Program-made: the position numbers and the translations under genes
The notes under the pieces: model-generated
Database searches by the model: none
The model's input: only the letters and a program-made list of their open reading frames with translations
Told to the model about the DNA's origin: nothing
Sequence record: OQ689734.1
Source: Escherichia phage 4E8
Direction: 5' to 3' (one strand)
DNA length: 64,000 bases
Part shown: positions 22,935-35,416 of the stretch, piece after piece
Position numbering within the stretch: the first letter of the stretch is position 1
Layout of the letters: every line of letters starts with the position of its first letter

Positions 22935-22961
22935 AACGAAAAAAGCCACCCGAAGGTGGCT
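22935..22961 (-). terminator. rho-independent terminator (minus strand)
   Basis: agccacc-ttcg-ggtggct hairpin followed by TTTTTTCG on minus strand, downstream of SSB gene. Confidence 0.6.
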
Positions 22962-22983: not shown

Positions 22984-23724
22984 TTAGAATGGGCTATCAT
23001 CTTCTTCAAAGGTTGATTGCGGCTCTTCATTAATGGTAGGGATGCTTGGAGTAGCATCTTTCTGTTCAGTATCAGAAGCTTTAGTAACTTCACGACCAGC
23101 CAGAGGGATATTCTTAGCATCGTTAGCTTGAGTCAAGAGGTTACGTTGGAATGGGAAGATTGCTTGATAAGCAGCTAAGTTAGCATCAGTCTCAGCATAC
23201 GGTTCGAAGAAGATCAACTCACTACGAGGAGCACCTACCGCGTCACGATATTTAGTCGGGATTGGAGTGATGCTTTTAATGGAGTTTTTCTTCTCACCAG
23301 CTTTATTGGTGTAAGAGTTAACCAGAATGTTAACAGGCTGACCTAACAGCATATCTTTAAACCAACCCAAATCACCTTTCAGTGCTTGAACACTTGGGTC
23401 GATCATTTTAATCAGATTTAGAATACCAGAGTTCTTAGCTCGTGGGTTTACATCGAAAGATTTAAACTGGCAAGCAGGACGAGGGTCCAGAGATTTGCCT
23501 TCATTATCAGTCCCTGTTGCATCTACGCCAATCAGCTCAAAAGCTAAGTCCATACGGAAAGCTGGGTTCTTAGGGGTAACTGCTTTGGTCTTAGGGTCAA
23601 TCCAAGGGTCACGATTGTGAACACCTAAACCTACAACACGAACAATACGTGCTTCGTACTCACCATCAGGGATTACATCGTAGTTGGATTTACGGGATAC
23701 AGACAGTTCAGGGATCATAGACAT
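22984..23724 (-). CDS. single-stranded DNA-binding protein
   Basis: acidic C-terminal tail ending EEDDSPF (terminal Phe as in E. coli SSB DDDIPF and T7 gp2.5). Confidence 0.6.
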   Translation of the reverse strand: MSMIPELSVSRKSNYDVIPDGEYEARIVRVVGLGVHNRDPWIDPKTKAVTPKNPAFRMDLAFELIGVDATGTDNEGKSLDPRPACQFKSFDVNPRAKNSGILNLIKMIDPSVQALKGDLGWFKDMLLGQPVNILVNSYTNKAGEKKNSIKSITPIPTKYRDAVGAPRSELIFFEPYAETDANLAAYQAIFPFQRNLLTQANDAKNIPLAGREVTKASDTEQKDATPSIPTINEEPQSTFEEDDSPF

Positions 23725-23781
23725 ATTAATATTTCCTTATATAAATTTAAGATTGTTGCTCTCTTTGAGCGGTTTGTATAC

Positions 23782-23792
23782 TATATACATTA
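23782..23792 (-). promoter_or_regulatory. TAATGTATATA motif (minus strand)
   Basis: exact 11-mer read on minus strand in AT-rich ORF-free intergenic region. Confidence 0.35.
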
Positions 23793-23854
23793 CACTTATA
23801 CAGATAAGGTTCTATTATACTATAACCTTTTTGGTAGTAGATAATAACAAATAG

Positions 23855-23865
23855 TAATGTATATA
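23855..23865 (+). promoter_or_regulatory. TAATGTATATA motif (plus strand), divergent from the copy at 23782
   Basis: exact 11-mer; no + strand gene follows, so may drive an antisense or noncoding transcript. Confidence 0.3.
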
Positions 23866-24139
23866 TGGTATAGCTAGTAAAGCTATTGCAGGCTTGTATA
23901 TTGGGCAATTCATAGAATCCCTTGCAAGTACCGAAGGGCAGGAGCCACCTGCGAGATAAAAATAGAGAATTAAGGAATCCTTGATTTAGGTTGTAGGGAC
24001 TCCTAGGGACTTTGATTCTCTATTTAAAAGAATATTAATTACTTACTACCTAAATAATTAACTAACTTACTTAAACCAAATTCAAGAATAATAGATAAAA
24101 AGATTATTCCTAAGAAAGCTAAAAAGTAAAGGATATAAG

Positions 24140-24304
24140 TTACCATTCAAGTAAACCTTTAAAGTTAGTTTGTTCTACTATCCTCTGATAACGAAGATTA
24201 GAATCAGCTTGTTTCTTTAACATCTCATTATATTTATCTCTGATAGAGTCTTTATAAACTACAGGTTCTTTAAATAACGAGATCTTGTTCTTTTCTTCTT
24301 TCAT
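24140..24304 (-). CDS. hypothetical protein
   Basis: track ORF 24140-24388 overlaps phosphatase gene heavily; internal Met MKEEKNK reduces overlap. Confidence 0.35.
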   Translation of the reverse strand: MKEEKNKISLFKEPVVYKDSIRDKYNEMLKKQADSNLRYQRIVEQTNFKGLLEW

Positions 24305-35381: not shown

Positions 35382-35392
35382 TATATACATTT
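35382..35392 (-). promoter_or_regulatory. AAATGTATATA promoter-like motif (minus strand)
   Basis: one mismatch from TAATGTATATA; ~38 nt upstream of the 35344 start. Confidence 0.3.
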
Positions 35393-35416
35393 GAGAGTGA
35401 TCATATCTACTACCAA

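What the first reader, a model, noticed from the sequence alone, without database searches (positions are those of the whole stretch)
23725..24139. A 415-bp AT-rich ORF-free gap with nested inverted and direct repeats
Besides the divergent TAATGTATATA pair, the gap has a perfect 10-bp inverted repeat AATAGAGAAT...ATTCTCTATT (~23960-24022). This encloses the direct repeat TAGGGACT-CC-TAGGGACT and a CCTAGG palindrome. On the minus strand the inverted repeat is followed by TTTTTATCTCG, so it could terminate transcription. The density of symmetric elements also fits an origin of replication or an operator cluster at a transcription-unit boundary.
Basis: seen in the sequence. Interest (0 to 1): 0.45.

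Follow-up and report, generated by a model that had tools for sequence, protein, structure and literature searches.

The report
Hidden promoter and small RNA gene
This gap in a phiEco32-like coliphage holds a published phage-sigma promoter for the next gene. On the opposite strand it also holds an unlisted twin of a second published promoter, which most likely makes a conserved, folded RNA of about 155 nt that codes for no protein and whose role is unknown.

Summary
One at a time they are only mildly unusual, so their meaning comes from context. The window is a phiEco32-like podophage.

- **Minus-strand copy.** The minus-strand TAATGTATATA is the published gp36 (phage sigma) middle promoter P40, which drives gene 40, a probable ssDNA-binding protein.
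- **Plus-strand copy.** This is a complete gp36 promoter. Its -35 block (TTGGTAGTAGATA), spacing and -10 element match the structurally characterised promoter P68, and it points away from every gene. It is not among the six mapped phiEco32 gp36 promoters.
- **Conservation.** Both promoter elements are 97-100% conserved while the spacer between them drifts to 53%.
- **Predicted RNA.** The predicted start (23870) is the first base of a hairpin kept by compensatory changes. A variable cassette follows, then a 93-nt block that is 99% conserved, against 87-88% for the flanking coding sequence. That block contains the 10-bp inverted repeat.
- **Strand.** G·U pairs and folding energies favour the plus strand.
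- **Minus-strand reading of the hairpin.** It sits right after the upstream gene and is followed by a T-run, so it plausibly ends that operon.

There is no Rfam match, no conserved ORF, no host homologue and no sign of an origin. The best reading is a transcription-unit boundary that also contains an unannotated small RNA gene of about 155 nt. Its function is unknown.

The parts
22984..23724 (-). Gene 40 homologue (246 aa), the gene served by promoter P40. Probably an OB-fold ssDNA-binding protein with an acidic C-terminal tail ending in F.
   Evidence: ORF list. It is the homologue of phi32_40. The C-terminus reads ...TFEEDDSPF. The AlphaFold model has pLDDT 82, and its best PDB fold matches are SSB, PrgE, RPA and PriB, all weak. 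Pfam and PDB sequence searches found nothing.
23725..23777 (-). Predicted 53-nt 5' UTR of gene 40, running from the predicted P40 start at 23777 to the ATG, with a Shine-Dalgarno AAGGA at 23738-23734.
   Evidence: The start is placed 14 nt after the first A of AATGTA, as in the P68 structure (PMC12276001). Mean pairwise identity is 91.7%.
23784..23792 (-). -10-type element TAATGTATA of the gp36-dependent middle promoter P40. This promoter is already known.
   Evidence: Exact motif. The same site is listed as the SU10 middle promoter 'between CDS37 and CDS38'. Gene 40 is one of the six phiEco32 genes preceded by a mapped gp36 promoter (PMC8948821). The element is conserved in all relatives.
23831..23843 (+). 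-35 block TTGGTAGTAGATA of the plus-strand gp36-type promoter, with G at -37 (23833) and A at -34 (23836).
   Evidence: The block and its spacing are identical to the window's P68 homologue at 35382-35414, minus strand. G-37 and A-34 are the bases contacted by the gp36 C-terminal domain in the P68 cryo-EM structure (PMC12276001). Mean pairwise identity is 97.5%, against 53% for the adjacent spacer.
23855..23865 (+). -10-type element TAATGTATATA of the plus-strand promoter. AATGTA occupies -14 to -9, which puts the predicted +1 at A23870.
   Evidence: Exact motif. It is 100% invariant in 11 genomes and present in all 20 aligned sequences. Metagenomic relatives with 72-74% gp40 identity have TAATGAATA at the same place.
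23870..23886 (+). H1, a 5'-terminal stem-loop (AUAGCU-AGUAA-AGCUAU) that starts at the predicted +1.
   Evidence: Four of its 6 pairs show changes on both sides, and 97% of cells are paired. RNAalifold predicts it independently. Seven sequences have a G·U pair that would be A·C on the minus strand. In the L025/L032-type relatives a different hairpin, ACAUC-AAAY-GAUGU, again starts at the predicted +1.
23887..23932 (+). Variable middle domain of the predicted RNA. Invariant UUGCA is followed by a cassette that exists in at least four unrelated versions among relatives.
   Evidence: Alignment A1 and metagenomic variants.
23933..24025 (+). Ultra-conserved 3' domain. It consists of GAAGGGCAGGAG, hairpin H2 (23938-23942 with 23948-23952), an A-rich linker, and the long hairpin H3 (23960-23975 with 24010-24025). 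H3 encloses TAGGGACU-CC-UAGGGACU.
   Evidence: Mean pairwise identity is 99.1% and 98% of columns are invariant, against 87-88% identity for neighbouring coding sequence. H3 has 16 contiguous pairs on the plus strand, including 2 invariant G·U pairs. Its folding energy is -23.5 kcal/mol on the plus strand and -18.2 on the minus strand. Homology in relatives without genes 41/42 stops at the end of H3.
23953..24025 (-). The same hairpin read on the minus strand (an 11-bp AT-rich stem), followed by UUUUUAUCUCG. It is a candidate terminator or 3' stabiliser for the operon upstream of gene 40.
   Evidence: Minus-strand fold of -18.8 kcal/mol, z-score -2.2. T-run. It always lies directly after the upstream stop codon. 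The consensus terminator scan did not call it.
24039..24146 (-). Gene 41 homologue, a 35-aa hydrophobic peptide.
   Evidence: Annotated in phiEco32, SU10 and SU7. The reading frame is kept, with conservative changes, in most relatives and is absent in the Bas87, Paul, XT32 and ECBP2 types. PHROG 24970.

Best explanation
The gap is a transcription-unit boundary in a phiEco32-like phage, and it also contains an unannotated small RNA gene. Three elements work here.

1. **P40 (shown by others in phiEco32).** The minus-strand TAATGTATA is the gp36-dependent middle promoter P40. It starts a one-gene transcript for gene 40 at about 23777. That transcript ends at the strong terminator at 22944-22961.

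2. **A second, plus-strand promoter (inferred).** 72 nt away on the other strand sits a second gp36 promoter, a twin of P68 with the same -35 block, spacing and -10 element. In the middle and late phase, host RNA polymerase carrying gp36, helped by gp79, should start at A23870 and transcribe rightwards, against the direction of all neighbouring genes. The product is a non-coding RNA of about 155 nt:
   - a 5'-terminal stem-loop that would protect the 5' end;
   - a swappable middle cassette;
   - an almost invariant 3' domain made of a short GC hairpin and a 66-nt hairpin.

3. **The long hairpin read on the minus strand (inferred).** There it is followed by a U-run and lies right after the upstream gene. 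The plus-strand RNA and the upstream operon's mRNA therefore converge on it and share it.

The most likely role is a stable regulatory RNA made once gp36 appears. Its 3' domain is perfectly complementary to the 3' end of the upstream operon's mRNA, so it could pair with that hairpin and expose the mRNA to RNase III and exonucleases, much as lambda OOP acts on cII. This functional step is a guess. A role through a protein partner or in trans is equally open.
For: **Identity of the phage and the motif.**
- The nearest relatives are MLP3, HC-25922 and SU7, and phiEco32 itself is about 92% identical over the gap.
- tAATGTAtA is the gp36 promoter element, with the start 6-8 nt downstream (PMC8948821; PMC4281155).
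- Gene 40 is one of the six genes behind a mapped gp36 promoter, and the same site is listed for SU10.

**Plus-strand promoter.**
- GGTAGTAGATA-N12-AATGTATATA occurs exactly twice in the window, here and at the P68 homologue, against 0.00 expected (context).
- G-37 and A-34 are the bases gp36 contacts in the P68 structure.
- The footprint is sharp: -35 block 97.5%, spacer 53%, -10 element 100%.
- In ES17-type genomes a 140-nt insertion separates it from P40, yet it stays attached to the RNA region.

**RNA.**
- H1 starts at the predicted +1 in two unrelated sequence versions.
- Four of H1's 6 pairs covary. In the whole structure 97% of cells are paired, against 33-53% when the partners are slid, and 0 of 500 shuffles reach the observed covariation score.
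- RNAalifold finds H1, H2 and H3 on its own.

**Strand.**
- The G·U pairs are standard only on the plus strand.
- The plus strand folds more stably in 20 of 21 sequences.
- H3 folds at -23.5 kcal/mol on the plus strand and -18.2 on the minus strand.
- Local GC skew is positive across 23800-24050 and negative in the flanking minus-strand genes.

**Not coding.** The small ORFs in the gap are broken in relatives.

**Conservation and range.**
- The 3' domain is 99.1% identical, against 87-88% for coding flanks.
- The gap matched in 98 GenBank phage records, the same number that carry gp40 at 80% identity or more.
- It is also present in metagenomic relatives at 72-74% gp40 identity.
Against: - There is no transcript evidence of any kind. 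I could not read the paper that mapped the promoters (Pavlova 2012), so it may have tested and dismissed this site.
- The plus strand has no proper terminator. Only UUU follows H3, and the scan finds none within 1.5 kb, so the 3' end and the 155-nt length are assumptions.
- Covariation supports H1 only. H2 and H3 never vary, which says nothing for or against pairing and would also fit a DNA-level constraint.
- The control shuffles do not correct for relatedness, and the independent lineages are few.
- No target was found. The longest complementarity elsewhere in the window is 12 nt, which is chance level, and nothing similar exists in E. coli genomes.
- One metagenomic contig has AATATA in the -10 element.
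Confidence: 0.6

Rival explanations
1. Only the minus-strand functions are real: promoter P40, plus a terminator or an RNase III-type processing hairpin at the end of the upstream operon. On this reading the plus-strand motif is a silent or decoy gp36 site, for example a leftover of a duplication of P68. The invariant block is conserved for its role in the minus-strand mRNA or as a protein-binding DNA site.
For: - The hairpin plus T-run lies right after the upstream stop codon in all relatives.
- H2 and H3 show no covariation, so the strand cannot be proved from them.
- The published sets list six promoters and not this one.
Against: - A silent site would not keep both the -35 block and the -10 element at 97-100% while the 10-nt spacer between them falls to 53%.
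- H1 covaries, starts exactly at the predicted +1 in two unrelated versions, and uses G·U pairs that are A·C on the minus strand.
- The plus strand folds better in 20 of 21 sequences.
- A terminator does not need an invariant 44-nt interior.
Confidence: 0.15
2. The gap is an origin of replication primed by transcription. The gp36 promoter fires into the ORF-free region, and the transcript forms a persistent hybrid that primes rightward DNA synthesis. This is the logic of T4 oriF/oriG (a middle promoter plus an unwinding element), of the T7 primary origin (promoters plus an AT-rich stretch), and of ColE1 RNA II.
For: - A phage-specific promoter points into non-coding DNA.
- An AT-rich stretch of 22-23% GC follows at 24000-24150.
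- The next gene is a probable SSB.
- No origin is reported for this group in the searchable literature.
Against: - The AT-rich stretch is mostly the coding sequence of gene 41 and is absent in relatives that lack genes 41/42, whereas the conserved module ends at the hairpin.
- Cumulative GC skew turns at about 18 kb, where the direction of transcription switches, and not here.
- No iterons are conserved. The TAGGGACT repeats change spacing from 10 to 9 nt in several relatives.
Confidence: 0.12
3. The symmetric elements are operators for a phage DNA-binding protein: a palindromic site at 23870-23886 and direct repeats at 23994-24011.
For: The region has a high density of inverted and direct repeats. 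Both TAGGGACT copies change together in some relatives.
Against: - The palindrome changes sequence freely while keeping its pairing, and in 7 sequences its half-sites differ (G·T), which is RNA behaviour.
- The coordinated change in the repeats is matched by a change in the UCC(C) segment that can pair with them.
- Repeats of this size are common in shuffles of this AT-rich gap.
Confidence: 0.04
4. The gap encodes an unannotated small protein.
For: The window has ORFs of 20-53 codons on both strands.
Against: Each of these frames is broken by stops or frameshifts in close relatives, while the nucleotide sequence stays 99% conserved.
Confidence: 0.02

Closest known systems
phiEco32 gp36-dependent middle promoters P40 and P68 (Pavlova et al. 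2012, as summarised in PMC8948821; P68 cryo-EM structure in PMC12276001)
   Same: The minus-strand copy is P40 itself. The plus-strand copy has the same -10 element AATGTATATA, and the same -35 block TTGGTAGTAGATA at the same spacing as P68, including the contacted bases G-37 and A-34.
   Different: The plus-strand copy is not one of the six mapped promoters, which precede genes 6, 13, 26, 40, 58 and 68. It faces away from all genes and is followed by non-coding sequence. Its activity is untested.
Lambda OOP RNA (from my own knowledge: a 77-nt antisense RNA convergent with cII; pairing leads to RNase III cleavage)
   Same: It is a short non-coding phage RNA with its own promoter, oriented against the neighbouring operon and overlapping that operon's 3' end. 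Like OOP, it sits where a replication-priming role could also be argued.
   Different: There is no sequence or Rfam similarity. The RNA is about twice as long. The overlap is with a 3' untranslated hairpin, not with coding sequence. It lacks a clear terminator of its own. It depends on a phage sigma factor.
Bidirectional or convergent intrinsic terminators, and T7-type RNase III processing hairpins (from my own knowledge)
   Same: A single long hairpin with an A-run on one side and a T-run on the other lies between convergent transcription units. It has lower and upper stems separated by internal loops.
   Different: The stem is AT-rich and the interior long, so the consensus scan does not call it. 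The U-run is good only on the minus strand. The whole interior is invariant, which a terminator does not require.
Transcription-primed phage origins: T4 oriF/oriG and the T7 primary origin (from my own knowledge)
   Same: A phage-specific promoter fires into non-coding DNA next to an AT-rich stretch and replication genes.
   Different: The AT-rich stretch is not conserved, there is no skew signal, and no initiation data exist.

Membership tests
gp36-dependent promoter of phiEco32-like phages | -10-type element tAATGTAtA, with AATG at -14 to -11 | tested here: met
   TAATGTATATA at 23855-23865 on the plus strand and TAATGTATA at 23792-23784 on the minus strand. The exact motif occurs 4 times against 0.72 expected.
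gp36-dependent promoter of phiEco32-like phages | -35 region contacted by the gp36 C-terminal domain (G at -37 and A at -34 in P68) | tested here: met
   The plus-strand copy has G23833 at -37 and A23836 at -34, within a 13-nt block identical to that of P68. P40 has T at -37 and A at -34.
gp36-dependent promoter of phiEco32-like phages | Conserved at the same place in relatives | tested here: met
   Both elements are 97-100% identical while the spacer is 53% identical. At 72-74% gp40 identity the element is kept with AATGAA.
gp36-dependent promoter of phiEco32-like phages | Lies upstream of a middle or late protein-coding gene on the same strand | tested here: not met
   The plus-strand copy has no conserved ORF downstream, and every neighbouring gene is on the minus strand. 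P40 does meet this feature.
gp36-dependent promoter of phiEco32-like phages | Transcription by the gp36 holoenzyme in vitro or in infected cells | not testable with these tools
   This needs primer extension or in vitro transcription. It has been published for P40 only.
Rho-independent terminator (minus strand) | G+C-rich stem with a short loop | tested here: not met
   The stem has 11 pairs with only 2 G-C pairs and a 44-nt structured interior. The consensus scan did not report it.
Rho-independent terminator (minus strand) | U-run directly after the stem | tested here: met
   AUUCUCUAUUUUUAUCUCG on the minus strand. It is invariant in relatives.
Rho-independent terminator (minus strand) | Placed just after the stop codon of the upstream transcription unit | tested here: met
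   It lies 13 nt after the stop codon of gene 41 in the window, and 0-36 nt after the upstream stop codon in relatives that have other upstream genes.
Any described RNA family (Rfam 15) | Covariance-model match at the gathering score | tested here: not met
   There is no match in the gap at the gathering score. The best sub-threshold hits have E-values of 2.5-7.4.
Cis-antisense phage RNA of the lambda OOP type | Own promoter, convergent with an operon, with the transcript overlapping that operon's 3' end | tested here: inconclusive
   The orientation and the promoter fit. The overlap of about 70 nt depends on untested 3' ends on both strands.
Transcription-primed phage origin (T4 oriF / T7 primary origin type) | A conserved AT-rich unwinding region next to the promoter | tested here: not met
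   The AT-rich stretch at 24026-24139 is mostly gene 41 and is absent in relatives of the Bas87, Paul, XT32 and ECBP2 types.
Transcription-primed phage origin (T4 oriF / T7 primary origin type) | DNA synthesis starts here | not testable with these tools
   The only proxy is GC skew, which turns at about 18 kb and not at this gap.

The most novel reading that the evidence does not exclude
All phiEco32-like coliphages carry an unrecognised seventh gp36/gp79-dependent transcription unit. It makes a stable, highly structured non-coding RNA of about 155 nt belonging to no known RNA family. The RNA has an invariant 3' domain and an exchangeable middle cassette. It would act in the middle and late phase as a regulator (of the upstream operon's mRNA, or of a host or phage protein) or as a replication primer.
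Probability: 0.55. Interest if true: 0.6.

Novelty: new member of a known kind. Interest (0 to 1): 0.5.

Why it matters
phiEco32 is the model for how a phage-encoded sigma factor (gp36) and its partner gp79 reprogram E. coli RNA polymerase. Its promoter set is taken to be six, and all six sit in front of protein genes.

A seventh promoter, identical in both elements to the one used for the cryo-EM structure, would show that the gp36 programme also makes a non-coding RNA. It would add a phage RNA family to a group that is being isolated widely for therapy; 98 GenBank genomes carry the region without annotating it.

The prediction is cheap to test because the start site, strand, size and timing are all specified. 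The swappable middle cassette between invariant ends is also a natural handle for asking what the RNA recognises.

Tried and rejected
- **Known RNA families.** Rfam scans of the whole window at gathering score and of the gap at E up to 10 found nothing relevant. ARAGORN found only a distant tRNA-Arg.
- **Small ORFs.** ORFs on both strands were translated in 20 relatives, and none is conserved.
- **Trans targets.** The longest complementarity to the predicted RNA elsewhere in the window is 12 nt, which is chance level.
- **Second copy.** A search for a second copy in the window found only the shared promoter blocks.
- **Host homologue.** blastn against 5,426 complete E. coli genomes gave no match.
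- **Wider distribution.** Pattern scans of IMG/VR and JGI metagenomes returned only genomes of the same phage group, plus one chance hit.
- **Deeper relatives.** Relatives found through gp40 at 61-65% identity, and phages 7-11 and GAP52, have a short gap or none, and lack the element.
- **Sigma-70 promoters.** Promoter-like sites in the region are at chance level, 7 found against 7.0 expected.
- **GC skew.** It gave no origin signal.
- **CsrA sponge.** I considered this because the RNA has four GGA motifs. I dropped it because the complementary TCC is almost as frequent (3 copies), as expected for hairpins.
- **phi29 pRNA-like or 6S-like RNA.** There is no Rfam match and the 5' and 3' ends do not pair.
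- **Literature.** The two primary phiEco32 papers (Savalia 2008, Pavlova 2012) are not in the library. Searches for a phiEco32 or Kuravirus non-coding RNA, transcriptome or origin found nothing relevant.
- **Covariance model.** I did not build one, because BLAST and direct reading of the loci had already defined the range.

Full report
**What the window is**

The gap and its flanks match 98 GenBank phage records. All are phiEco32-like podophages of E. coli or Shigella (Gordonclarkvirinae). The nearest are MLP3, HC-25922 and SU7, and phiEco32 itself is about 92% identical over the gap.

All genes around the gap are on the minus strand. The gap lies between two homologues:
- phi32_41, a 35-aa peptide at 24039-24146;
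- phi32_40, a 246-aa protein at 22984-23724.

**Checking the observation**

- the 12-nt perfect inverted repeat GTAATGTATATA, at 23782-23793 and 23854-23865;
- the inverted repeat AATAGAGAAT/ATTCTCTATT, which extends to 23960-23973 and 24012-24025;
- TAGGGACT twice, 10 nt apart, with CCTAGG between the copies;
- the run TTTTTATCTCG on the minus strand.

Two corrections apply. The right-hand 100 nt of the interval encode the small gene 41, which is conserved where present. Only the flanks are AT-rich, and the centre has average G+C.

Taken alone the repeats are weak evidence. In shuffles of the gap, a perfect inverted repeat of at least 10 nt turns up in 13% of cases, one of at least 12 nt in 1%, and an 8-nt short-range direct repeat in 16%.

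**What the TAATGTATATA pair is**

tAATGTAtA is the published promoter element of gp36, the sigma factor that phiEco32 encodes. Transcription starts 6-8 nt downstream of it (PMC8948821; PMC4281155).

Six gp36 promoters have been mapped in phiEco32, in front of genes 6, 13, 26, 40, 58 and 68. The minus-strand copy here is therefore P40. The SU10 paper lists the same site as the middle promoter between its CDS37 and CDS38. That part of the finding is already known.

The P68 cryo-EM paper numbers AATG as -14 to -11. On that numbering P40 starts at 23777, which leaves a 53-nt leader. A canonical terminator follows gene 40 at 22944-22961, so gene 40 forms a one-gene unit.

Gene 40 is probably an ssDNA-binding protein:
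- Its predicted fold (pLDDT 82) best matches OB-fold SSB, PrgE, RPA and PriB structures, although the matches are weak.
- It ends in an acidic tail with a terminal phenylalanine.
- One GenBank record annotates it as an ssDNA-binding protein.

**The plus-strand copy is a complete promoter**

I listed every AATGTA in the window together with its upstream sequence. The plus-strand copy carries TTGGTAGTAGATA at -39 to -27. This is the same block, at the same spacing, as the window's homologue of P68, the promoter used for the cryo-EM structure of the gp36/gp79 open complex. It includes G at -37 and A at -34, the two bases the gp36 C-terminal domain contacts and whose mutation abolishes transcription.

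The pattern GGTAGTAGATA-N12-AATGTATATA occurs exactly twice in 64 kb, even with three mismatches allowed, against 0.00 expected.

Across 11 genomes the conservation has the shape of a bipartite promoter:

| Segment | Mean pairwise identity |
|---|---|
| -35 block | 97.5% |
| 10-nt spacer between the elements | 53% |
| -10 element | 100% |
| DNA between the two promoters | 71% |

In ES17-type genomes a 140-nt insertion separates the two promoters. The plus-strand promoter stays with the sequence to its right, so it is not an upstream element of P40.

It points away from all genes. The small ORFs downstream of it are broken in relatives. It is not among the six published promoters, and none of the GenBank records I inspected annotates it.

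**What it would transcribe**

The predicted start is A23870, which is the first base of a 6-bp stem-loop (H1).

- **Covariation in H1.** In an alignment of 21 distinct relatives, four of the six H1 pairs show changes on both sides. Over the whole proposed structure 97% of cells pair, against 33-53% when partners are slid by one to three columns, and none of 500 shuffles reaches the observed covariation score. That shuffle control does not correct for relatedness, and the independent lineages are few.
- **A second version of H1.** Metagenomic relatives with 72-74% gp40 identity have the -10 element TAATGAATA and a completely different H1 sequence (ACAUC-AAAY-GAUGU). It again begins exactly at the predicted +1.
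- **Middle cassette.** After H1 comes invariant UUGCA, then a middle segment that exists in at least four unrelated versions.
- **3' domain.** A 93-nt block follows that is 99.1% identical, against 87-88% for the coding flanks.
- **End of the conserved module.** In relatives that lack genes 41/42, homology stops at the end of H3, so the conserved module runs from 23725 to about 24030.

RNAalifold predicts H1, H2 and H3 without guidance.

**Which strand**

H2 and H3 never vary, so they carry no covariation signal. Several asymmetries favour the plus strand:
- Seven sequences have a G·U pair in H1.
- Two invariant G·U pairs extend H3 to 16 contiguous pairs on the plus strand.
- One relative changes A-U to G·U in H3. 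All of these pairs would be A·C mismatches on the minus strand.
- The plus strand folds more stably in 20 of 21 sequences.
- H3 folds at -23.5 kcal/mol on the plus strand and -18.2 on the minus strand.
- Local GC skew is positive over 23800-24050, as it is for genes transcribed rightwards in this phage.

Inside H3, both TAGGGACU copies shorten together to AGGACU in six relatives. The UCC segment that can pair with either copy becomes UCCC in three others. That again reads as pairing rather than as protein-binding iterons. The interior fold remains ambiguous, because my model and RNAalifold disagree there.

**The hairpin on the minus strand**

Read leftwards, H3 is an 11-bp AT-rich stem followed by UUUUUAUCUCG. 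It lies 0-36 nt after the stop codon of whichever gene is upstream in each relative.

It is not a textbook terminator, however, and the scan did not call it. On the plus strand only UUU follows the stem, and no other terminator is found within 1.5 kb. The 3' end of the plus-strand RNA is therefore an assumption. It could be set by weak termination, by Rho or by processing.

**Function**

Nothing computed here identifies a function:
- no Rfam family matches;
- no E. coli sequence is similar;
- no second copy exists in the window;
- no complementary target longer than chance was found.

What the anatomy does show is an RNA with protective hairpins at both ends, an invariant 3' domain and an exchangeable middle. 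It would be made when gp36 and gp79 are present, and its 3' part is perfectly complementary to the 3' end of the upstream operon's mRNA.

My preferred mechanism is a stable regulatory RNA that acts on that mRNA end, on the lambda OOP model. I hold that step loosely. An RNA that primes replication is a live alternative, but it lacks a conserved AT-rich partner and any skew signal. An operator cluster and a hidden small protein are both unlikely.

**Range**

The gap matched in 98 GenBank phage records, the same number that carry gp40 at 80% identity or more. It is also present in metagenomic relatives at 72-74% identity. It is absent at 65% identity or less, and in phages 7-11 and GAP52, where the corresponding gap is 103 nt and zero.

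**Verdict**

The origin and operator readings are not supported.
- One promoter is already known. The new item is a probable seventh gp36 promoter with a conserved non-coding RNA behind it.
- I did not find this described in the searchable literature, but I could not read the primary mapping paper.
- Confidence that a plus-strand RNA is made is about 0.6. Interest is moderate.

Noticed in passing
window 22944-22961 (minus strand): A canonical GC-rich terminator, AGCCACC-TTCG-GGTGGCT followed by a T-run, lies directly after the stop codon of gene 40. Gene 40 is therefore a self-contained unit running from P40 to this terminator. The 7-11 paper notes a conserved stem-loop at the corresponding place between its genes 48 and 47.
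   Followed up: partly
window 22984-23724 (minus strand): Gene 40 has no Pfam or PDB sequence match. Its AlphaFold model (pLDDT 82) best matches OB-fold ssDNA-binding proteins, although weakly. The protein ends in an acidic tail with a terminal phenylalanine, as T7 gp2.5 does. It is annotated 'hypothetical' in nearly all of the records listed.
   Followed up: partly
window 23887-23932, compared with L012, L016, L019, L025, L032 and L034: The middle of the predicted RNA exists in at least four unrelated sequence cassettes, set between invariant UUGCA and GAAGGGCAGGAG. One cassette type adds its own 7-bp hairpin (UCUCUCA/UGAGAGA).
   Followed up: partly
L016 380-523 (phage ES17); also L041-L043, L045 and L046: ES17-type genomes carry an insertion of about 140 nt between the two divergent promoters, with an annotated 47-codon ORF. 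Its start codon abuts the -35 block of the plus-strand promoter.
   Followed up: no
window 23994-24011, compared with L013, L014, L017-L019, L025, L032 and L034: Both TAGGGACT copies lose a G together in six relatives, which changes their spacing from 10 to 9 nt. The UCC segment at 23978-23982 gains a C in three others. Either repeat copy could pair with that segment, which hints at alternative folds.
   Followed up: partly
L030, L031 and L035 (Logan metagenome contigs): Three independent contigs end 33-203 nt upstream of the gene 40 homologue, which is inside this gap. The likely cause is assembly breaking at the variable cassette in mixed populations. L031 still shows a plus-strand gp36-type promoter (G at -37, A at -34, AATGAA) just before the contig ends.
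   Followed up: no
window 24038-24054: An imperfect inverted copy (82%) of the -35 block region, ATTACTTACTACCTAAA, lies at the 3' end of gene 41. No -10 element sits at the right distance, and the copy is absent in relatives without gene 41. It is probably chance or a relic.
   Followed up: partly
L041 (metagenome contig ERZ1034915 NODE-75): One relative has AATATA instead of AATGTA in the plus-strand -10 element. This changes the G at -11 that gp36 reads. It may be a natural knock-down variant or a sequencing error.
   Followed up: no
window 24039-24146 (minus strand): A 35-aa, very hydrophobic peptide (gene 41, PHROG 24970) is conserved with conservative substitutions in most relatives. It is missing as a block, together with gene 42, in others.
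   Followed up: partly
window 54415-54491 (minus strand): tRNA-Arg (anticodon TCT). It is the only tRNA and the only Rfam gathering-score hit in the window.
   Followed up: no
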